From the NCBI GenBank assembly GCA_949082785.1, contig CARVLU010000003.1:9133-73132 (forward strand): a stretch of DNA of 64,000 nucleotides, in the 5' to 3' direction. The DNA comes from an uncultured Alphaproteobacteria bacterium. Lineage in GTDB: Bacteria > Pseudomonadota > Alphaproteobacteria > Rs-D84. Below, piece by piece: positions 6,846 through 62,582 of the stretch; the stretch's first letter is position 1, and the number at the start of each line of letters is the position of its first letter. The position numbers were made by a program, and so were the translations under genes. The notes beneath the pieces were generated by a model. That model saw nothing but the letters and a program-made list of their open reading frames with translations, searched no databases and was not told where the DNA came from.

Positions 6846-7973
<1,128 letters not shown>

Positions 7974-9248
7974 TTACTTAAAATTATCCCGCCACACGGC
8001 TGCCAAATCGACGTTAAAATCCGCACCCTGGGTAACAATGGACATCGGCCCATCAAAGGAACCACGCACATTTTCAATCACATCGTCCCGACGAACACTT
8101 TCCGACATCCGGGTATCGGCATCCAAATCAAAAAGCCGCCCAGAAAAACGCCAGAAGCTAATTAATTTGTCACAGCGACTGGTCGCAGATTCCATCCAAT
8201 CTGCCCGCGACAGACGATTGCGACAATTTATGCGTCGCAAATCATCGTCTGTAATTGTGTTCTGGGTATAAATTTTGTGTGCATTTTTGGCAATCAACGC
8301 CACCACACGTTCCACATTTTCCGGCGCCGTTTGGGTGTTAAAGCCCGTCAGGCCAAGTTTTTCGTTCCCGACACCGGTGCCTGAAAAACCATACACCAAT
8401 CCATTTTCCCGACGAATAATATCAAACAATTCACGGTTCATATAACGCCAGAATTTTGACACGCATTTGTTCTGGAACAGATTTTCATATGTTGCATCCC
8501 ATACGTCGGGGAACAAAATACTTAACACCACATTTTTCTTGCCCGGTTTGGAATTGTGCGCAATGGTGGGCGTGTATGTGATGCTGGCATTTTCCGGCAC
8601 ATCCAGGTTTGGCAAAAACCCAAAGGCCGTTTCTAAATGTCGCAACACGGCGTCCGCATCCAAAATACGACCCGATATGCCGATGATGCAATTATTGGCC
8701 GACAGGCGCCGCCCCAAAAATTCAATAACCCGATCACGGGTAAAAGACAGAATCAATTCTTCGGTCCCCAAGCCCCGCGTTGAAAACGTTGCATAGTTAA
8801 ACAGTTTACCGGACACAAAATCCCTATATTGTCGCTGGGAATTATCCAGGGCACGGCGCAGCTCATCAATCACAACGCGGTGTTCAATATCAATCTTGTC
8901 CGGTTCAAACAGGGCGTTTTGCAACTGGTCACTGATCACATCAATCAAAACATTAATGTTTTCAGCCAAAATGCGCCCATAAAAATACAGTCGATTATTC
9001 CCCGTGGCGGCATTATGGTTTCCCCCATGATCGTCCAGAAATTCCTGTCGTTCCTTGGACGCTGCAAACCGCGCCGTGCTGCTGCACAACATGTGTTCGC
9101 AAAAATGGGTCAGACCATATTCGGTGGGACCTTCGTCCCGGCTGCCGGTGCGAAACAGAACCTTGACAGACACGGTTTCCAAATCCATCGGGTCCAGGAT
9201 GACCGTCACACCGTTTGATAATTTATGTATGGTCGGATTGTATTGCAC
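7974..9248 (-). CDS. M16 family zinc peptidase (pitrilysin-like, HxxEH)
   Basis: HFCEHM inverted zinc motif; ORF track extends to 9353 (TTG) but GTG at 9248 preceded by GGGGGG SD and 10 nt after upstream gene stop gives the typical M16 N-terminus (VQYNPTIHKLSNGVTV). Confidence 0.8.
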   Translation of the reverse strand: MQYNPTIHKLSNGVTVILDPMDLETVSVKVLFRTGSRDEGPTEYGLTHFCEHMLCSSTARFAASKERQEFLDDHGGNHNAATGNNRLYFYGRILAENINVLIDVISDQLQNALFEPDKIDIEHRVVIDELRRALDNSQRQYRDFVSGKLFNYATFSTRGLGTEELILSFTRDRVIEFLGRRLSANNCIIGISGRILDADAVLRHLETAFGFLPNLDVPENASITYTPTIAHNSKPGKKNVVLSILFPDVWDATYENLFQNKCVSKFWRYMNRELFDIIRRENGLVYGFSGTGVGNEKLGLTGFNTQTAPENVERVVALIAKNAHKIYTQNTITDDDLRRINCRNRLSRADWMESATSRCDKLISFWRFSGRLFDLDADTRMSESVRRDDVIENVRGSFDGPMSIVTQGADFNVDLAAVWRDNFK

Positions 9249-15057: not shown

Positions 15058-15545
15058 TTTTCTGGATTACCGGGCGCTTACTCTCCTTTGTCATTGCGAA
15101 CGAAGTGAAGCAATCCAGTCAAATAATGAACTATTCCTTGCTATTCCTGGATTGCCGCAGTCGTTTCACTCCCTCGCAATGACAGGGGTGTTTAATTGCT
15201 CAAAACCGGGCGCTTACTCTCCTTTGTCATTGCGAACGAAGTGAAGCAATCCAGTAAATAGTGAACTATTCCTTGCTATTCCTGGATTGCCACGCGGCGA
15301 CGTTCCGTCTTGCTCGCAATGACAGGGGTGTTTAATTGCTCAAAACCGGACACTTACTCTACTTTGTCATTGCGAACGAAGTGAAGCAATCCAGTGAATA
15401 TGAACCTTGCCGCTTTCCTGGATTGCCACGCGGCGACGTTCCGTCTTGCTCGCAATGACAATGGGGATGCAGCGCCTGGCTTTGTGTCTTGCCTGCTTCA
15501 TCACACTTGTTCATTGCGAGAGAAGCGACACAATCCAGTTAATAA
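15058..15545. repeat. three and a half tandem ~140-bp repeats, each containing an inverted pair TTGTCATTGCGAACGAAGTGAAGCAATCCAG / CTGGATTGCC...CGCAATGACA
   Basis: direct inspection; related units at 43738-43839 and 44336-44545. Confidence 0.85.
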
Positions 15546-55570: not shown

Positions 55571-55604
55571 AAAACCGGCCGCGCCTAATGGCGGCCGGTT
55601 TTTG
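55571..55604. terminator. bidirectional rho-independent terminator
   Basis: AAAACCGGCCGCGCCTAATGGCGGCCGGTTTTT. Confidence 0.85.
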
Positions 55605-55616
55605 TATTGCGGTTTA

Positions 55617-56255
55617 TTACAAACCAAATCTGTACGCCAGCCCCAGGTATAATTGCGTGGCATCAACCTTGGACACGCCGCGGGCATGTTCCACACGACC
55701 AAAATTGATGTATTTAAACCCAACATCCAAATCAATACGCGAATTCAGGTGAAACAACACACCGACCATCACCTGGTACGACAAATCAAAGGCATTATCC
55801 AAATCCCCGTCAATTTCGCCCCAAATCCCGGTTAAACCCAATCCGGCCGCCGCATACGGCGCCACCGCATTGTCAAAATCCCATAACAGATAGGCATTCA
55901 GCATATTCGCCCAAATATCATATTCAAAATTGGTATCGTATTTGGTGTACTGGGCCCCCATGTACATTGTTTCGTATTCCACCCGCAGAAAATTGGTTAA
56001 ATTATTGCCAACCGTGGTACCGAAACCGAAATTATCTTTCTTGTACTTTTCCTTGTGCCCATTGGACAGGTTATATGAATACGCGGCATGTTCGTTTTTA
56101 TAGACACGCACGCCGGTGTAATTGTCGCGCGTGGGCGACCCGCAATCACAGACCGGGCATTCTGGATACACAGTCACATCATAATCGATATATTCATTCG
56201 CCATGGCCCCCGTGGCGGTCATGCACATTAAAAACAAAGCCAGAAATTTTTTCAT
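55617..56255 (-). CDS. outer membrane beta-barrel protein (OmpA-like/OMP_b-brl family)
   Basis: signal peptide MKKFLALFLMCMTATGAMA, alternating amphipathic strands, C-terminal LGLAYRFGL. Confidence 0.65.
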   Translation of the reverse strand: MKKFLALFLMCMTATGAMANEYIDYDVTVYPECPVCDCGSPTRDNYTGVRVYKNEHAAYSYNLSNGHKEKYKKDNFGFGTTVGNNLTNFLRVEYETMYMGAQYTKYDTNFEYDIWANMLNAYLLWDFDNAVAPYAAAGLGLTGIWGEIDGDLDNAFDLSYQVMVGVLFHLNSRIDLDVGFKYINFGRVEHARGVSKVDATQLYLGLAYRFGL

Positions 56256-56336: not shown

Positions 56337-57596
56337 TTATTTACAATGTATTTCGATGATGTCGTTGATGTCGGTTGTGTAATTCGGGGACAACATGTTG
56401 TGCATCGGGCGCCATGTCTGGTTGCCAATTTCCGCGGTTAAACGGACTGTGTTTTTGCCAAAACGGGTATTGATTGCATCTATCGCCGCCATCAGATTAT
56501 CCGACGCGGCCGTGTCATGGGCGCCGAACAAATCCATCGGGCGATTGCGGGCGGGCGTGATGTCGTTGACGATGACCCCGGCCTTTTTATACTGAAAGCC
56601 GGTTCGATATATCTGCCCCAGTGCATCCAGTGCCACCGACACAATTACGCGCGTATCGTTTGTGACAAACGGCATCGGCAAAACGCGTGTCAAAACGCAT
56701 TGCGGCAAATCGGGCCGAAAACGATTTGTGGTCAAAAATGTCATCACTGACCCCGCGACCAATTGTCCCGCGCGCAATTTGGCCCCACACCGCGCGGCAA
56801 ACGTTGCGACCGCCGATTCCAAATCCGCCAGTTCCGTCTGCATCACGGCAAAGCTGCGTGATGTGCAAATCTGCTGCTTGTCCGCGGGGTGCATTTCCAA
56901 TTGGATACAGGCCGTGCCATTTAATTCGCACCATGTGCGCAGACCGGTTACCGTCATTAATTTTTGGACCCGGGCCCGGGGCAAGCGTGCAAAATCCGCC
57001 GCGGTGAACACCCCCATTGTGTTTAAGCGCGCCCCGTGGCGCCGCCCAATTCCCCACACATCGTCCACCGGGGTCAGTTCCAGCGCACGCCGACGCTTTT
57101 CATCGTTGTCAATGACACAGACGCGTTTATATCCGGGATATTTTTTGGCGGCGTGGTTGGCCACCTTGGCCAATGTTTTTGTGGGACCAATTCCGACCGA
57201 CACCGGCACGCCGGTCGATTGCGTGACATACCGCGCGATGTTTGCCCCCAATTCGGCGTAATTCGCATTATCGGGGATTTTAAAAAAGGCTTCGTCAATC
57301 GAATAGATTTCAACATCCGGCACAATTTCCGCCAGCAATCGCATCACCCGCGCCGACATATCCCCATACAGCGTGTAATTCGATGACCGTGCCACAACCG
57401 TGCCTGCATCGATTAATTTCCGCAATTGGAACGCGGGCGTGCCCATTTTTATCCCCATGGCACGCGCGGCGGGCGACCGGGCGATAACGCACCCGTCATT
57501 ATTGGACAACACGACCACCGCCCGCCCCCACAGCGCCGGGTCAAAGACGCATTCGCAACTGGCATAAAAATTATTACAATCCAACAATCCGAACAT
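56337..57596 (-). CDS. umuC: translesion error-prone DNA polymerase V subunit UmuC (Y-family)
   Basis: MFGLLDCNNFYASCE N-terminus, Y-family catalytic D/E residues. Confidence 0.9.
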   Translation of the reverse strand: MFGLLDCNNFYASCECVFDPALWGRAVVVLSNNDGCVIARSPAARAMGIKMGTPAFQLRKLIDAGTVVARSSNYTLYGDMSARVMRLLAEIVPDVEIYSIDEAFFKIPDNANYAELGANIARYVTQSTGVPVSVGIGPTKTLAKVANHAAKKYPGYKRVCVIDNDEKRRRALELTPVDDVWGIGRRHGARLNTMGVFTAADFARLPRARVQKLMTVTGLRTWCELNGTACIQLEMHPADKQQICTSRSFAVMQTELADLESAVATFAARCGAKLRAGQLVAGSVMTFLTTNRFRPDLPQCVLTRVLPMPFVTNDTRVIVSVALDALGQIYRTGFQYKKAGVIVNDITPARNRPMDLFGAHDTAASDNLMAAIDAINTRFGKNTVRLTAEIGNQTWRPMHNMLSPNYTTDINDIIEIHCK

Positions 57597-57601
57597 CACG
57601 T

Positions 57602-58063
57602 TTATCCCTGGGTATGACGGCGGATGGAATATGTCACCACGCCCCAAATGACAAAATCATTATCGGGGGTAACGCGGATTGGGGTGAATTCTTTGTTTGC
57701 CGGAATCAACAGGATGGTTTTTTTCTGAATCTTGATATATTTAACCGTAAATTCCCCATTGACAAAGCACACGGCAATCTGGCCCGTTTTCGGGTTCAGC
57801 GATTTGTCCACCACGACCAAGTCCCCATCATAAATCCCCGCATCAATCATGCTGTCGCCACGGATGCGCCCCAAAAAAGTTGACGCGGGATGCGCGATTA
57901 ATTCACGGTTTAAATCGATTGGCGCCGCGATATAGTCATCGGCGGGGCTGGGGAAACCGGCCTGGATTGATGTATCCGGGAATGGAATTTCGATACTGGT
58001 TTTTAAACTGACCGGATATATGGTGACGTCACCGGTTGTTTTTTTCTGTGCGCGTTTTACCAT
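57602..58063 (-). CDS. umuD: DNA polymerase V autoproteolytic subunit UmuD (S24 peptidase)
   Basis: AGFPSPADDY ... GDSM ... GDLVVVD ... K; LexA-like self-cleaving domain. Confidence 0.85.
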   Translation of the reverse strand: MVKRAQKKTTGDVTIYPVSLKTSIEIPFPDTSIQAGFPSPADDYIAAPIDLNRELIAHPASTFLGRIRGDSMIDAGIYDGDLVVVDKSLNPKTGQIAVCFVNGEFTVKYIKIQKKTILLIPANKEFTPIRVTPDNDFVIWGVVTYSIRRHTQG

Positions 58064-58161
58064 TGATGCCCCCCTGTTGCCAAACCAGTCTAGGCCATCT
58101 GGGCATCCGCATGATACAGGTATGTAACCCTGGGGAAAGATTCGCGGGCGGACGCCCCCTT

Positions 58162-59187
58162 TTATTCTTTCACGCGTTGCAGGGCGCCAATAATCTGCCC
58201 CAACAGACGTGCCTTTTTCGTGCCGACGGGGGCGCGACCCTGAACCTGTTTCGCGGCCAGGTTAAATGATACACGCTTGTTATTTTTTAACTTTGTAATG
58301 CGGGGTTCGCTGTACCCGGTTTTGCGCGATGTGGCGGCAACGCGCCCCCGGGACCCGTTCAATGCGGTTTGGACCGCGTCAATTTCCCCCTGGGACATTT
58401 CGGGTTTACGAACGGGGCGCACGGGGACAATATGAAATTTTCGATTCCAGATATACAGTTGATCGCACGTCAGTTCATATTTGGGCGCAATTGTCATAAA
58501 TGCAACGCGTGCGGTGCGGCTGTGCGCTGGCAATTCGTCATAGACCCCACGCGCGTCACGCAAAATTTCCCGTTGCTGGGCCGGGGTGAACGCGGTGTAT
58601 TGGGGCGCCGTGCGACCTTCATAAATTTGATACTGTTTATTCCATCGGCCAATGGTGTATTGTGGCACATTGAAATGCCGGGATGCGTCCGCCACGCCGT
58701 GGTCACGGGCATGCATCAAAATGGCGACAATGTCATCGTGACCGTATTCGCGCAACGGGGAATAAACATGATACTTTTTATTCCAACGGATAATCGTACT
58801 GGGGTTCACACCAAACTGGTTGGCGGCCGCCATCGGCCCAAAATCGCGCGCATATTCCAGTATTGCCATCTTTTGCGCGGATGTGAACGACGGCACCTTT
58901 GGGGCATAGACATGCGCATCTTGGTTCCACAGTTTAATGATGGCCGCCGACACACCAAATTTTTTCGTTGTTGCCCGAACGCCATTATCCCGGACAAAGG
59001 CCAAAATTTTCGCGCGTTGCCCCGGGGTGTATTCCGCCGTCTGGGGCGTGTATATTTTCAGGCGCCGGTTCCACAATCCCAACGCGTTGCGTGACACGCC
59101 AAAGTGACGCGATGCCGCCACCACCCCATGGTCGCGGGCATAGGTCAGAATTTCAATTTTTTTATCTTCTTTGAACGGGGCCGTCAT
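58162..59187 (-). CDS. protein composed of five tandem transposase-N-terminal-type HTH repeats (HTH_Tnp_1/HTH_28-like)
   Basis: repeats KKIEILTYARDHGVVAASRHFGVSRNALGLWNRRLKIY / RAKILAFVRDNGVRATTKKFGVSAAIIKLWNQDAHVY / KMAILEYARDFGPMAAANQFGVNPSTIIRWNKKYHVY / IVAILMHARDHGVADASRHFNVPQYTIGRWNKQYQIY / ... Confidence 0.6.
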   Translation of the reverse strand: MTAPFKEDKKIEILTYARDHGVVAASRHFGVSRNALGLWNRRLKIYTPQTAEYTPGQRAKILAFVRDNGVRATTKKFGVSAAIIKLWNQDAHVYAPKVPSFTSAQKMAILEYARDFGPMAAANQFGVNPSTIIRWNKKYHVYSPLREYGHDDIVAILMHARDHGVADASRHFNVPQYTIGRWNKQYQIYEGRTAPQYTAFTPAQQREILRDARGVYDELPAHSRTARVAFMTIAPKYELTCDQLYIWNRKFHIVPVRPVRKPEMSQGEIDAVQTALNGSRGRVAATSRKTGYSEPRITKLKNNKRVSFNLAAKQVQGRAPVGTKKARLLGQIIGALQRVKE

Positions 59188-59199
59188 ATGCCAATCCTT

Positions 59200-60516
59200 T
59201 TAATCTTTGCGCAATAATTCTGTGGATTTTATGTATTCGGGTGCAGATTTATCCAAACGTTTGCGTGCACGCGTTGCATATTGATGCGTCTTTTTCTGGT
59301 CGCCGGTCATATTGTAATATTCCGCCATGGCCCAGTCGGCCCGCCCGTCCCCGTCGCCCCACGCGCGGGCCAAAACCCAGTATGTCAACGCCGCCGGTTC
59401 GGCAAGTAACGCCCGCCGGCACAATTCAATTGCACGGTCGCGGTCACCGGGTTTGTCCCGTTCAGACAGCACCAGCGCCAGCGCCGTCTGAATCTGGGGG
59501 GCGCCCCCCGCCAACGTCAACGATTTGTCGTATGCGGCCACACTGTCATCATAATGGCCGTATTGGTATTCAATATCCCCCAGTAATTCATAGAAATACG
59601 GATTCTGCCCATGGCGCGATATCAGGGTTTGCGTCCCGGTTTTTGCCCCCGCCAAATTCCCCGCGCGCATATTTGCGATTGCCCGCGCGTACAGCGCCGC
59701 ATCGGATTTGTCCGTTGCGGGATACAGCGTCCGCACCCGGTCACCCGGATACAAATACCCGACCAGTTTGGCCCGGACCAATTCGTATTGCGCACGGCGA
59801 TTGGCATCCCGGCGGGCATCTGATTTGTAATCAGACGGTCGGGCCGCGATATAATCACGAACGTTTTTCAACCGTTCGGTTGTCAAAGGGTGGTTGACGC
59901 GATTGGGGTTAATTTTTTCTTCGGCGGCGCCCGTGATATCGCGCATTTGTTCAAAGACATCAACAAACCCGTTCGGATTTTGGCCGGCGCGCATCATTAA
60001 ATCCAGCCCCAGATTGTCCGCCATGCGTTCTTCGTCCCGGGAAAATGCCAGCATTGATTGCGTTGTCATTCCCGCGGTTCCCGCCAACACCCCCATCCCC
60101 AGCGACGGGTTCCCGCCCGCCACCATCAGCCCCACCCCCAATGCCTGGACAATGGCGGTGCGTTTTAGTTCTGCGTTCATACGCGCCGACATTTGCGCCA
60201 TATGCCCGCCCAGCGTATGCCCCAATTCGTGGGCAACAACGGCCTGTAACGCGTCGGGCGTTTTAATTTGGGTCAGCAAACCGGTATAAATATAAACTTC
60301 TTCGCCACCACTGACGAATGCGTTGAAATCATCGCTGTGCACCACATTGATTTTCAAGCGCCCCGCCGCAATCCCCGCCGCATCCGCCAATGGTTCTACC
60401 AATTCGGTCAAATGGCGTTCAATTTCCGTATCATTGATAATCGCGGCGCCATATACCCCGGTGCAAAACCACGCCCCCACAATAACGGCCAAGATGCGTC
60501 GCACCACGTTCATCAT
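59200..60516 (-). CDS. M48 family metallopeptidase with TPR repeats (BepA/YfgC-like)
   Basis: signal peptide; HELGHTLGGH zinc motif; C-terminal TPR-like helices; start overlaps recG stop. Confidence 0.8.
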   Translation of the reverse strand: MMNVVRRILAVIVGAWFCTGVYGAAIINDTEIERHLTELVEPLADAAGIAAGRLKINVVHSDDFNAFVSGGEEVYIYTGLLTQIKTPDALQAVVAHELGHTLGGHMAQMSARMNAELKRTAIVQALGVGLMVAGGNPSLGMGVLAGTAGMTTQSMLAFSRDEERMADNLGLDLMMRAGQNPNGFVDVFEQMRDITGAAEEKINPNRVNHPLTTERLKNVRDYIAARPSDYKSDARRDANRRAQYELVRAKLVGYLYPGDRVRTLYPATDKSDAALYARAIANMRAGNLAGAKTGTQTLISRHGQNPYFYELLGDIEYQYGHYDDSVAAYDKSLTLAGGAPQIQTALALVLSERDKPGDRDRAIELCRRALLAEPAALTYWVLARAWGDGDGRADWAMAEYYNMTGDQKKTHQYATRARKRLDKSAPEYIKSTELLRKD

Positions 60517-62582
60517 GCCCCCACCGCCAATCGCCGGTCAAAGATAAACATCAAATCCAAAATAAACTGGGTCGGCCCGTTCATTTCCATCGCCGCACGC
60601 GACGCCAATTTGAACAAATCACGATGTTCCCGGTAATCCACAAAATGATATTGGACCCAACCGCTTTGCCGTGTGCCCAGCAATTCGCCGGTGCCGCGCA
60701 TCATCAAATCTTGTTCGGCGATGACAAACCCATCGTCCGTTTCACACAGCACGTCCAGACGCCGCATTCCATCTTCGCCCAGGTAATTTCCATGCAACAA
60801 AACACAATACGATTGCAACGCCCCACGACCGACGCGGCCGCGCAACTGATGCAACGCCGCCAGCCCAAATCGTTCCGCATTTTCAATAACAATAATCGTC
60901 GCACGGGGGACGTCGATGCCGACTTCTATCACGGTCGTTGCAACCAACAGCGGCATGTCGGAATTATCGTCGGCAAATTCGGCCATGACGGCGTCGCGCT
61001 GCTTCTTGTCCATTTGACCATGGACCAGACCGATGTTCGGCCAAAATTTCTTTAAATCATCAAATCGCGCCTGGGCCGCGGTCATGTCAGATTCCGCCGT
61101 TTCCGCAACCAGTGGGGTGACCCAGAATACCTTGGCACCGGCATCAATCTGGGCCGCCACACGCCCGACCAATGCGTCAATGCGCGACAACGGCAGCTTG
61201 GTCGTTTTAATGGGCAATCGGCCCGCGGGTTTTTCATTAATCACGGAAACATCCATGTCGCCGTAAATCGTCATGGACAGTGTGCGCGGAATCGGTGTCG
61301 CCGACAGCGCCAATAAATCCGGGTTTGTCCCCTTGGCCCGCATGGCTTCGCGTTGGGAAACGCCAAATCGATGCTGTTCATCAACAATGACCAATCCCAA
61401 ATCTTTGTACGCAACATCGTCGGAAAACAGCGCATGTGTCCCAATGGCCAACCGCGTCCGCCCCGACCGCAGGGATACCAGTTTTTCGCGCCGCGCGCCC
61501 CCCTTGTCCCGGCCGGTCAGAATGTCACAGACCAATCCCATCTGGGCGCACATCGGGGCCAGTTTTGCATAATGCTGTTGCGCCAACGTATCGGTCGGCG
61601 CCATTAAAACCGTCTGGGCACCGGTTTCGGCCATGGCGACGGCGGCGGCCATGGCGACCATGGTTTTCCCACTGCCCACATCCCCCTGGACCAGGCGCAT
61701 CATCGGCACGTCGCGCGCCATGTCCGCGCGGATATCATCAATAGTGCGTTGTTGCGCGCCGGTCAATTCAAATGGCAAAATCTGATAAAACCGGTCCATC
61801 AAATCGTATTTGTGGGCGCGATGCGGCCGACGGTGACGTGCATCACGACGTTCACGCCGGGTGATAGCAATCGCCGATTGATGCGCCAACAATTCGTAAT
61901 ACGCCAATTTAACCATGTATTGGGCATGGGGCGCCAAATCGGCGGGGTCGGTCGGGAAATGCACATGACGCAGCGCATCAAAAAATTCCCGCGTTTGGTC
62001 ATCGGCATCATTCAGCCCCACCCGTTCGTCCAGGGCACGGAATACCTGGTCACGGACGGCGGCAAACGTTTTTTGGGTCAACCCTTCGCCGGCGGGGTAA
62101 ATCGCCTGGACCGCGGGGATTTTGTCCGCCCCATCCACCGTTTCGATAAATTCAGGATGATTGATAATCCAATTGCCGCGCGGGCTGCGTTCCAATTTGC
62201 CACTGACGACGCGGTATTCGCCAATGGGCAATTTCTTTAACCAATAATCCAGAAAATTCACGTTAAAGAACTGTATCACCACGCGGTTGCCGCCCATATC
62301 GGTACAGACAACCTGGCTGGGGGCGCGGCGACCGCGGAATTTTCCGCCCACCTTGTGCGATTGGACGTTCAGACGCACCGTCACAATATCACCCGGGGTA
62401 ACATCGGCAACATTATCCGTTATATCGCGCCGGCGCACACCACTGGGGCGATGCAATAAAAAATCCAGAACGCGGCGACCACCCAACACGTCTTCGAACC
62501 GGGCGGCGACGACGGGGCCAACCCCCTTGACGAATTGCAAATCGGTTTTCAGAAAATCAAACAGTTCCTGTTTCATATGCAA
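60513..62582 (-). CDS. recG: ATP-dependent DNA helicase RecG
   Basis: wedge domain, helicase motifs GDVGSGKT, DEQHRFG, QLRGRVGRG. Confidence 0.95.
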   Translation of the reverse strand: MHMKQELFDFLKTDLQFVKGVGPVVAARFEDVLGGRRVLDFLLHRPSGVRRRDITDNVADVTPGDIVTVRLNVQSHKVGGKFRGRRAPSQVVCTDMGGNRVVIQFFNVNFLDYWLKKLPIGEYRVVSGKLERSPRGNWIINHPEFIETVDGADKIPAVQAIYPAGEGLTQKTFAAVRDQVFRALDERVGLNDADDQTREFFDALRHVHFPTDPADLAPHAQYMVKLAYYELLAHQSAIAITRRERRDARHRRPHRAHKYDLMDRFYQILPFELTGAQQRTIDDIRADMARDVPMMRLVQGDVGSGKTMVAMAAAVAMAETGAQTVLMAPTDTLAQQHYAKLAPMCAQMGLVCDILTGRDKGGARREKLVSLRSGRTRLAIGTHALFSDDVAYKDLGLVIVDEQHRFGVSQREAMRAKGTNPDLLALSATPIPRTLSMTIYGDMDVSVINEKPAGRLPIKTTKLPLSRIDALVGRVAAQIDAGAKVFWVTPLVAETAESDMTAAQARFDDLKKFWPNIGLVHGQMDKKQRDAVMAEFADDNSDMPLLVATTVIEVGIDVPRATIIVIENAERFGLAALHQLRGRVGRGALQSYCVLLHGNYLGEDGMRRLDVLCETDDGFVIAEQDLMMRGTGELLGTRQSGWVQYHFVDYREHRDLFKLASRAAMEMNGPTQFILDLMFIFDRRLAVGA

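What the first reader, a model, noticed from the sequence alone, without database searches (positions are those of the whole stretch)
58162..59187. Protein made of five tandem transposase-type HTH repeats adjacent to umuDC
The 341-aa ORF consists of ~50-aa repeats with the pattern x-I-L-x-[YF]-A-R-D-x-G-x4-A-x3-F-[GN]-V-x5-W-N-[KR]-x3-[IV]-Y. This is the HTH_Tnp_1/IS3 OrfA-like DNA-binding unit, iterated five times, with no transposase catalytic domain anywhere nearby.

The architecture is unusual. It may be a domesticated transposase-derived DNA-binding protein or array. It sits immediately upstream, on the same strand, of the error-prone polymerase operon umuD-umuC.
Basis: seen in the sequence. 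Interest (0 to 1): 0.55.

Follow-up and report, generated by a model that had tools for sequence, protein, structure and literature searches.

The report
Six-module helix-turn-helix array protein
This is an intact, conserved gene of uncultured gut Alphaproteobacteria whose 341-residue basic protein is a string of six small helix-turn-helix DNA-binding modules; it belongs to an uncharacterised family, and its position next to the umuDC mutagenesis genes is a one-lineage coincidence.

Summary
ORF 58162-59187 lies on the minus strand and encodes 341 aa, pI 10.3. It has four clear 47-48-aa repeats (z = 10-23 against shuffles) and a fifth carrying an insertion. A sixth tri-helical module shows only in the AlphaFold model (pLDDT 83, pTM 0.32, beads on a string). 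A conserved C-terminal amphipathic helix follows.

It is not an IS mosaic. Full-length orthologues at 38-50% identity keep the whole architecture, each repeat is positionally orthologous, and there are no flanking inverted repeats or transposase.

The umuDC link is not supported. Eight other orthologous contexts lack umuDC, and in five of them the gene directly precedes the outer-membrane-protein gene that follows umuC here, so umuDC is a lineage-specific insertion.

Related 4-repeat proteins of about 200 aa are numerous, once as four tandem genes.

Most likely this is a chromosomal multi-module DNA-binding protein that reads long or multipartite sites. Its target is unknown.

The parts
58162..59187 (-). 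Whole gene for the six-module HTH array protein ('HTH6'): 341 aa plus stop, pI 10.3
   Evidence: ORF list. It is 100% identical to P0001 in an NCBI MAG. Full-length orthologues share 38-50% identity.
59044..59175 (-). HTH module 1 (aa 5-48)
   Evidence: Helices 7-20, 22-29 and 33-43 in the AF2 model. Repeat z-scores 18.6-23.4 against modules 2-4.
58900..59031 (-). HTH module 2 (aa 53-96)
   Evidence: Helices 55-68, 70-77 and 81-91. z = 10.6-19. Its own signature GVSxGIIExWN is conserved in orthologues.
58756..58887 (-). HTH module 3 (aa 101-144)
   Evidence: Helices 103-116, 118-125 and 129-139. On its own it scores 18 bits on HTH_28. Brinker, IS66-TnpA and BldC partial matches fall here.
58615..58746 (-). 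HTH module 4 (aa 148-191)
   Evidence: Helices 150-163, 165-172 and 176-186. This is the best Pfam stretch for HTH_28, HTH_23 and HTH_Tnp_1. On its own it scores 19.4 bits on HTH_28.
58420..58590 (-). HTH module 5 (aa 200-256), with an insertion between helix 1 and helix 2
   Evidence: Helices 202-218, 226-237 and 241-251, pLDDT about 90. Weak repeat similarity, z up to 7.2. The DQLxxWNxK[FY]xIVP motif is conserved in orthologues.
58267..58398 (-). HTH module 6 (aa 264-307), divergent, recognisable by structure only
   Evidence: Helices 266-278, 283-290 and 294-302. Faint HTH_26 match at 287-309, E = 0.044. No sequence similarity to modules 1-5. Conserved in orthologues.
58165..58266 (-). Basic C-terminal tail (aa 308-341, net charge +6) with a conserved PPVG-x2-K motif and an amphipathic helix at 323-340
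   Evidence: AF2 helix 323-340. K325, I332 and L336 are invariant in alignment A2. Charge. The role in oligomerisation or partner binding is inferred.
57602..58063 (-). umuD-like gene (153 aa). Context, not part of the family's conserved locus.
   Evidence: Peptidase_S24 at 4e-28. An Ala-Gly cleavage motif QAGFPSP and GDSM...K are read directly in the translation. Absent from all other orthologous loci.
56337..57596 (-). umuC-like gene (419 aa by the L001 gene call). Context only.
   Evidence: IMS 2e-35, IMS_C and DUF4113. L001 gene call.
55617..56255 (-). Outer-membrane beta-barrel protein gene. In five orthologous loci it follows the HTH6 gene directly.
   Evidence: OMP_b-brl in L001. The gene follows HTH6 directly in L002/L003, L009, L010, L013/L014 and L017/L018.
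59200..60516 (-). M48 peptidase/TPR gene, ending 12 nt before the HTH6 start. Window-specific upstream neighbour.
   Evidence: Peptidase_M48 at 2e-29. Coordinates. The upstream neighbours differ in the other loci.

Best explanation
The gene encodes a host chromosomal DNA-binding protein of uncultured gut-associated Alphaproteobacteria. The protein is six small tri-helical helix-turn-helix modules joined by short linkers of about 8-12 residues that contain conserved aromatic and proline residues. A basic tail with an amphipathic helix follows.

Proposed mechanism (inferred, not shown): the modules behave as beads on a string. Each places its third helix in the DNA major groove, so the array reads a long or multipartite site of roughly 25-60 bp, or coats DNA cooperatively. 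This resembles multi-Myb proteins, the four-repeat Pipsqueak domain, or the tandem DNA-binding modules of phage homing endonucleases. The C-terminal helix would mediate self-association or partner contact.

The role is most likely that of a lineage-specific global regulator or nucleoid-organising protein. It is not a mobile-element function and not a umuDC-specific one. In this genome umuDC was inserted between this gene and its usual downstream neighbour.

Shown: the repeat architecture, the fold class, conservation and synteny, and the absence of IS features. Inferred: DNA binding itself, the mode of binding, and the cellular role.
For: - Architecture: six tri-helical bundles, mean pLDDT 83, pTM 0.32, meaning independent modules.
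- Charge: pI 10.3, and five of the six modules plus the tail are net positive.
- Real, selected gene: 24 homologues, of which 16 are full length at 38-51% identity with no frameshifts.
- Ancient array of non-equivalent modules: the same repeat compared between orthologues is 50-55% identical, whereas different repeats are 33-44% identical. Each module keeps its own helix-3 signature.
- Chromosomal and syntenic: housekeeping neighbours recur across loci, including PBP1A, OMP, adh_short, ligA, comM and DUF378. There are no relatives in the plasmid or phage collections.
- Wider family: 274 cluster representatives at E <= 1e-10. Most are stand-alone arrays of 4-7 modules, and one locus has four tandem 4-module genes.
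- Precedents for arrays reading long sites: the best Foldseek hits, though not significant, are Reb1-Ter, the Mos1 bipartite domain, the DUX4 double homeodomain, c-Myb and PAX6. Multi-HTH phage proteins, including endonucleases, match at E down to 7e-8.
Against: - No DNA target was found. The window has no suitable short-period tandem array, and no binding experiment exists.
- Residues at the start of helix 3 vary among orthologues. That fits a fast-evolving or low-specificity target and weakens the idea of a fixed composite site.
- Single modules match HTH families only weakly.
- Tri-helical bundles of the SANT type can bind proteins rather than DNA.
- The 12-nt gap after the M48 gene and the lack of a detected terminator before umuD leave co-transcription with umuDC possible in this genome.
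Confidence: 0.55

Rival explanations
1. It is a dedicated regulator or accessory factor of the adjacent umuDC error-prone polymerase operon, for example a lineage-specific replacement for LexA control.
For: It lies on the same strand as umuD with a 98-nt gap and no terminator-like site detected between them. The whole recG-M48-HTH6-umuD-umuC-OMP run is co-oriented.
Against: umuDC is absent next to the orthologue in all eight other distinct contexts examined. Synteny is HTH6-OMP-adh_short-ligA in L017 and HTH6-umuD-umuC-OMP-...-adh_short-ligA here, so umuDC is an insertion. The 98-nt spacer holds only weak box-like matches, GTTA-N7-GTAT and TACA-N4-TGTA.
Confidence: 0.05
2. It is a decayed insertion sequence: a mosaic of IS3-type OrfA pseudogene fragments that happens to stay in frame.
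For: There is weak similarity to the N-termini of IS3, IS66, IS630 and IS481 transposases and to PHROG transposase phrog_151. JGI labels two relatives 'transposase-like protein'.
Against: The 341-aa frame is intact and conserved end to end in orthologues at 38-50% identity, and the repeats are positionally orthologous. No flanking inverted repeats exceed chance-level 12-23-nt matches. There is no DDE/rve ORF nearby, no second copy in the window, and GC content is like the surroundings. NCBIfam IS scores are far below their cut-offs.
Confidence: 0.02
3. It is an ordinary local transcription factor that controls the neighbouring outer-membrane-protein gene, itself, or both.
For: The OMP_b-brl gene follows directly in five orthologous contexts, with gaps of 2-110 nt. 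Conserved sequence blocks lie in the divergent promoter region upstream of the gene in four loci.
Against: Three other contexts lack the OMP neighbour (L004-L007/L019, L011/L012, L008). In L017 a strong GC hairpin followed by an AT-rich stretch separates the two genes. The conserved upstream blocks could equally serve the divergent 80-aa Cro/C1-type regulator, and they are absent from the window. Six modules is far more than a local operator normally needs.
Confidence: 0.15
4. It is a domesticated DNA-binding array derived from a mobile-element recombinase and still acts on repeated elements in the genome, for example by binding or silencing palindromic MITE/REP-like repeats.
For: The same repeat unit occurs N-terminal to Pfam Integrase_2 domains (P0079, P0087) and in iterated Brinker / CENP-B_N / HTH_Tnp_Tc5 arrays. 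The window holds a 136-bp palindrome-containing tandem repeat at 15069-15460.
Against: No mobile-element gene is linked to any of the orthologues examined. Nothing connects the protein to those repeats. Similarity to transposase HTHs is at generic fold level.
Confidence: 0.1
5. The modules are SANT-like protein-interaction units and the protein is a scaffold that does not bind DNA.
Against: The protein has a strongly basic pI and positively charged modules. Pfam matches are to DNA-binding HTH families. SANT scaffolds are a eukaryotic chromatin feature, and DNA-binding Myb, Brinker, GcrA and NtrC domains match equally well.
Confidence: 0.05

Closest known systems
Pfam HTH_28 (PF13518), HTH_23 (PF13384) and HTH_Tnp_1 (PF01527): small tri-helical HTH units typical of IS3/IS630/IS481-type transposase N-termini
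   Same: A unit of about 45-50 aa with three helices. Whole-protein scores exceed the gathering cut-offs.
   Different: Here the unit is iterated six times in a stand-alone protein. There is no catalytic partner, no frameshift site and no IS ends. Single units score below threshold.
Eukaryotic tandem tri-helical arrays: c-Myb R1R2R3, S. pombe Reb1, SNAPc4, the Drosophila Pipsqueak 4x Psq domain, and the Brinker DBD
   Different: The protein is bacterial. Each unit has one conserved Trp (the W-N motif) instead of the three spaced Trp of Myb. Pfam BrkDBD scores 22.1 against a cut-off of 23.4, and HTH_psq 16.6 against 20.4. No sequence-level homology is established.
Tandem DNA-binding modules of phage homing endonucleases and other multi-HTH phage proteins
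   Same: Predicted phage proteins with strings of small HTH modules are the only significant whole-model fold matches (BFVD, E down to 7e-8). They include endonucleases of phages BcepSauron and ME3. PHROG HNH-endonuclease phrog_59 matches residues 82-185.
   Different: There is no nuclease domain. tblastn finds nothing in 50,697 phage records. The gene is chromosomal, syntenic and housekeeping in context.
GcrA DNA-binding domain and BldC/MerR-type small HTH proteins
   Different: Those proteins carry one HTH per chain and array themselves by oligomerisation. Here the array is covalent. Scores are far below the family cut-offs (BldC 19.4 against 77).

Membership tests
Pfam HTH clan units HTH_28 / HTH_23 / HTH_Tnp_1 | Whole-protein score at or above the Pfam gathering cut-off | tested here: met
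   HTH_28 scores 45.1 against 25, HTH_23 38.5 against 24.6, and HTH_Tnp_1 36.3 against 24.1.
Pfam HTH clan units HTH_28 / HTH_23 / HTH_Tnp_1 | Each individual repeat recognisable as the domain on its own | tested here: inconclusive
   Repeats 3 and 4 reach 18.0 and 19.4 bits on HTH_28, below the cut-off of 25. Repeats 1, 2, 5 and 6 give no hit at E <= 0.01. The AF2 model nevertheless gives a tri-helical bundle for all six.
IS3-family OrfA / IS3 transposase | Match to the curated IS3 model at its cut-off | tested here: not met
   NCBIfam transpos_IS3 scores 24.6 bits against a cut-off of 160.
IS3-family OrfA / IS3 transposase | A downstream or overlapping DDE (rve) catalytic ORF reached by frameshifting | tested here: not met
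   The next gene is umuD-like (Peptidase_S24). No transposase domain occurs among the neighbours.
IS3-family OrfA / IS3 transposase | Terminal inverted repeats flanking the element, and multiple copies | tested here: not met
   Only chance-level inverted repeats of 12-23 nt are found, none bracketing the gene. There is no second copy in the window.
Myb/SANT repeat proteins | Tri-helical fold | tested here: met
Myb/SANT repeat proteins | Three regularly spaced tryptophans (or aromatic equivalents) per repeat, and a Pfam Myb_DNA-binding match | tested here: not met
   Only one conserved Trp per repeat, in the W-N motif. No Myb_DNA-binding hit at E <= 1.
Psq / Brinker / CENP-B_N class | Score at or above the Pfam gathering cut-off | tested here: not met
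MerR family regulators | An N-terminal winged HTH followed by a long coiled-coil dimerisation helix and an effector domain | tested here: not met
   MerR_1 scores 31.3 against 21.6 by summed partial matches, but the model shows no wing, no long coiled coil and no effector domain.
SOS / umuDC-linked regulators | Conserved co-localisation with umuDC across orthologues | tested here: not met
   umuDC is adjacent only in the window and its own species (L001). It is absent in eight other contexts.
The family itself (uncharacterised '6xHTH' proteins of gut Alphaproteobacteria) | A length of about 340 aa with colinear modules 1-6 and the PPVG-K...I..II..L tail | tested here: met
   Alignments A1 and A2 show 16 full-length members at 38-51% identity, with invariant residues throughout.
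DNA-binding function in general | Demonstrated binding to DNA | not testable with these tools
   This needs EMSA, DAP-seq or ChIP. Here it is only inferred from fold, charge and family matches.

The most novel reading that the evidence does not exclude
The protein and its 4-7-module relatives are a bacterial 'polydactyl' HTH system. In this reading, covalently arrayed, non-equivalent HTH modules each read a short subsite, so the array recognises a long asymmetric DNA address. Such an address could be a chromosome-organising site near the origin or terminus, or a centromere-like site. The family would diversify by module and gene duplication, making it a prokaryotic analogue of Myb, Pipsqueak or zinc-finger arrays with potentially modular specificity.
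Probability: 0.15. Interest if true: 0.7.

Novelty: new variant of a known kind. Interest (0 to 1): 0.4.

Why it matters
Bacterial DNA-binding proteins usually reach long-site recognition by oligomerising one or two HTHs per chain. A conserved family with four to seven covalently linked tri-helical HTH modules is uncommon and uncharacterised. It is present as a syntenic core gene in a gut alphaproteobacterial lineage, and in one locus as four tandem genes.

If the modules read DNA one subsite each, the family would be a new model for modular DNA recognition in prokaryotes. It could also be a nucleoid or global-regulator candidate for organisms that cannot yet be cultured.

For annotation, the practical lessons are:
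- These genes should not be called transposases.
- Their adjacency to umuDC here carries no functional meaning.

Tried and rejected
- **DNA-level tandem repeat in the gene:** none found.
- **IS remnants:** the repeat search over 57000-60600 gave only chance-size inverted repeats. tblastn found no other copy in the window.
- **Solved-structure sequence search:** nothing better than Brinker at E = 0.15.
- **Foldseek against PDB with the whole model:** no hit at E <= 1e-3, because the inter-module geometry is arbitrary. The afdb50 library was unavailable.
- **tblastn against plasmid and phage collections:** no match.
- **Genome-contig scan with the 24-sequence alignment:** failed for lack of a conserved stretch. 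The 7-sequence alignment used a single module-5 pattern and found only two MAGs, so it cannot speak to the distribution of the 4-module relatives.
- **Search for a DNA target:**
  - The window has no short-period array with 4 or more copies.
  - Conserved blocks upstream of orthologues are absent from the window and cannot be assigned to this protein rather than to the divergent Cro-like gene.
- **SOS box in the 98-nt spacer before umuD:** only weak partial matches read by eye.
- **Literature searches** for tandem HTH arrays, HTH_Tnp_1 and Pipsqueak-type bacterial proteins found no characterisation of this family.
- **Source names** give only 'helix-turn-helix domain-containing protein' and 'transposase-like protein'.
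- **The 120-124-aa ORF abutting the gene in one clade:** no Pfam match.

Full report
**1. The observation**

The ORF at 58162-59187 is real. It lies on the minus strand and encodes 341 aa. Its ATG is preceded by an AAGGA ribosome-binding site and sits 12 nt after the stop of an M48-peptidase/TPR gene.

The protein contains W-N motifs at residues 39, 87, 135, 182 and 247. Local alignments among repeats 1-4 score z = 10.6-23.4 above 300 shuffles, with 12-20 identities over 34-44 aligned positions. Repeat 5 is only weakly similar (z up to 7.2) and carries an insertion. The repetition is not visible at DNA level, so the repeats are old.

The protein is basic, with pI 10.3. Every module except the fourth is net positive, and the last 34 residues carry a net charge of +6.

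**2. Anatomy**

An AlphaFold2 model built on 24 homologues has mean pLDDT 83 but pTM 0.32. That combination means confident domains with undefined mutual orientation.

The model shows six three-helix bundles: residues 7-43, 55-91, 103-139, 150-186, 202-251 (with an insertion between helices 1 and 2) and 266-302. A short helix follows, then an amphipathic helix at 323-340. The sixth module has no detectable sequence similarity to the others.

The linkers are 8-12 residues long and contain residues that are invariant among close orthologues: I45, Y46, P48 and Y53.

**3. What the module is**

- Pfam gives HTH_28 (1.1e-11, 45.1 bits), HTH_23 (38.5), HTH_Tnp_1 (36.3) and MerR_1 (31.3), all above their cut-offs.
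- Scanned separately, only repeats 3 and 4 reach 18-19 bits on HTH_28/HTH_23/HTH_29 against cut-offs of about 25-28. The other repeats give nothing. The whole-protein scores are therefore sums of weak matches.
- NCBIfam IS3, IS66-TnpA, IS630 and IS481 models score 18-29 bits against cut-offs of 74-224.
- Foldseek against PDB gives nothing significant for the whole chain. Its top hits are multi-module DNA readers: Reb1-Ter, the Mos1 bipartite domain, the DUX4 double homeodomain, c-Myb and PAX6.
- Against predicted viral structures there are significant matches (E down to 7e-8) to phage proteins that are also strings of small HTH modules. Several of these are annotated as endonucleases.

The unit is a generic tri-helical HTH of the class that includes transposase N-termini. 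A specific IS3 OrfA assignment is not justified.

**4. It is a conserved gene, not an IS mosaic**

A search of 5.8 billion proteins found 24 relatives. Sixteen are 339-347 aa, align end to end at 38-51% identity and keep all six modules and the tail.

The same module compared between orthologues is 50-55% identical, whereas different modules are 33-44% identical. Each module has its own conserved helix-3 signature: GVSxGIIExWN in module 2, DKYDV...WN in module 3, EFNVP..TM.RWN in module 4 and DQLxxWNxKYKIVP in module 5. The array therefore predates the divergence of these organisms, and its modules are non-equivalent.

Four further observations argue against an IS remnant:
- No inverted repeats bracket the gene.
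- There is no paralogue or transposase in the window.
- GC content (0.54) is like the window (0.51).
- The plasmid and phage collections hold no relative.

**5. Organism and context**

- The identical protein is in NCBI MAG GCA_948850175.1.
- Orthologues lie in MAGs titled "uncultured Rickettsiales bacterium" and "uncultured Alphaproteobacteria bacterium".
- One of the orthologue-bearing contigs is named as pig gut metagenome.
- Close variants occur on hundreds of contigs up to 0.8 Mb.

The gene orders are:

| Locus | Gene order |
|---|---|
| Window and L001 | recG - M48 - HTH6 - umuD - umuC - OMP ... adh_short - small HTH_26 - ligA |
| L017/L018 | comM ... ABC - PBP1A - (divergent 82-aa Cro/C1 HTH) - HTH6 - OMP - adh_short - ligA |
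| L002/L003, L009, L013/L014 | Same PBP1A / small-HTH / HTH6 / OMP core |
| L010 | CYTH - HTH6 - OMP |
| L004-L007, L019, L011/L012 | DUF378 - 120-aa ORF - HTH6, followed by variable restriction or defence-like genes |
| L008 | A further arrangement |

None of these loci has umuDC. The simplest reading is that umuDC was inserted between HTH6 and the OMP gene in the window's lineage. The adjacency that motivated part of the finding is not a property of the family.

In L017 a strong GC hairpin followed by an AT-rich stretch and a promoter-like sequence separate HTH6 from the OMP gene. Even that recurrent adjacency may therefore be plain synteny.

**6. The wider family**

A full HMMER scan of 1.84 billion representatives with the family profile found 1155 proteins at E <= 1e-3, 274 at E <= 1e-10 and 67 at E <= 1e-30. 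Counting modules with a single-repeat HMM gave the following (summarised):
- The most common relatives are proteins of about 200 aa with exactly four modules (31 of the 171 proteins held).
- There are also stand-alone arrays of 5-7 modules.

Fusions were identified by Pfam:
- ankyrin repeats (P0061);
- Pfam Integrase_2 (P0079, P0087);
- very large proteins built of iterated Brinker / CENP-B_N / HTH_Tnp_Tc5 units.

The 4-module genes sit convergent to comM, next to lepB-rnc-secG-ligA. In one lineage they form four tandem paralogous genes, which is 16 modules in a row. That neighbourhood overlaps the HTH6 neighbourhood (comM, ligA). This suggests one chromosomal family that grows by module and gene duplication.

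No member carries a functional name. The only labels are "helix-turn-helix domain-containing protein" and "transposase-like protein". Literature searches found no study of the family.

**7. Mechanism**

What is shown: the architecture, fold class, charge, conservation, synteny, and absence of mobile-element features.

What is inferred is that the protein binds DNA with successive modules. It would either read a long multipartite site or coat DNA, as in multi-Myb proteins, the Pipsqueak domain, or homing-endonuclease DNA-binding strings. The C-terminal amphipathic helix has hydrophobic positions at 328, 329, 332, 333, 336 and 339, and K325, I332 and L336 are invariant. It would mediate self-association or partner binding.

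Two points weaken the idea of a fixed composite site:
- Helix-3 N-terminal residues vary among orthologues.
- No candidate target was found.

I put 0.55 on [quoted passage not shown]. The rivals are:
- local regulator of the OMP gene or of itself, 0.15;
- domesticated element-derived array still acting on genomic repeats, 0.10;
- umuDC regulator, 0.05;
- non-DNA-binding scaffold, 0.05;
- IS mosaic, 0.02.

**8. Verdict**

It is wrong or unsupported in its specifics: the IS3 OrfA identity, the count of five units, and the relevance of umuDC.

The protein is a new variant of a known kind, namely tri-helical HTH arrays. It is of moderate interest, mainly as an uncharacterised and widespread family of covalent HTH arrays in bacteria.

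Noticed in passing
window 15069-15460 (degenerate further copy to about 15545): A 136-bp unit is repeated 2.9 times (TRF score 610) in an ORF-poor stretch. Each unit contains a long palindrome (TTGTCATTGCGAACGAAGTGAAGCAATCCAG ... CTGGATTGCC...CTCGCAATGACA), resembling a MITE/REP-like element.
   Followed up: partly
L023 3159-5612 and L024 570-3023: Four tandem paralogous genes of 201-203 aa, each a four-module HTH protein, lie between groEL and comM. That is 16 HTH modules encoded in a row.
   Followed up: no
P0067 (2283 aa), P0035 (1976 aa), P0063 (1369 aa); also P0094, P0109, P0119 (more than 4000 aa): Giant proteins from metagenomes are built of up to 9 Brinker/CENP-B_N plus 8 HTH_Tnp_Tc5 units. 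These are iterated pogo-type DNA-binding pairs without an identified catalytic domain. Their origin, eukaryotic or not, is unknown.
   Followed up: partly
P0079 (1353 aa), P0087 (1223 aa), P0061 (675 aa): The same HTH unit in 2-4 copies is fused N-terminally to Pfam Integrase_2 (PF13009, E about 1e-100). In another protein it is fused to ankyrin repeats.
   Followed up: no
L002 7753-8000, L009 about 7835-8090, L013 3457-3699, L017 5712-6000: The divergent promoter region between an 80-82-aa Cro/C1-type HTH_26 gene and the HTH6 gene holds strongly conserved blocks: CTAGGAT.AAA.TC, GGTTGAATA.T.TCATA and TTTTTCAATCAGAAAA.TT.CCTATT. These are candidate operators. They are absent from the window.
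   Followed up: partly
window 56337-58161: umuD-umuC appears to be a lineage-specific insertion between the HTH6 gene and the OMP gene. The UmuD-like protein has a typical Ala-Gly cleavage motif (QAGFPSP) and Ser/Lys dyad context. The 98-nt spacer upstream has only weak SOS-box-like matches, GTTA-N7-GTAT and TACA-N4-TGTA.
   Followed up: partly
L002 10669-15227; L004 8821-11840; L010 7855-8877; L011 7316-8476: Variable defence- or mobile-type genes sit just downstream of the HTH6/OMP locus in different genomes. They are DpnI plus type I R-M subunits, an HNH plus D12 methyltransferase pair, an RVT_1 reverse transcriptase, and a SLFN/AlbA_2 protein. This suggests a variable-region hotspot there.
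   Followed up: no
window 59200-62582: recG (689 aa) and the M48-peptidase/TPR gene overlap by 4 nt. The M48 gene ends 12 nt before HTH6, so recG-M48-HTH6-umuD-umuC-OMP is one co-oriented run. The only strong terminator-like hairpin comes after the OMP gene, at 55571-55602.
   Followed up: no
L020 661-1197: A 178-aa protein with a weak Pfam HC2 (chlamydial histone-like) match is encoded near the 4-module HTH gene in a related alphaproteobacterial contig.
   Followed up: no
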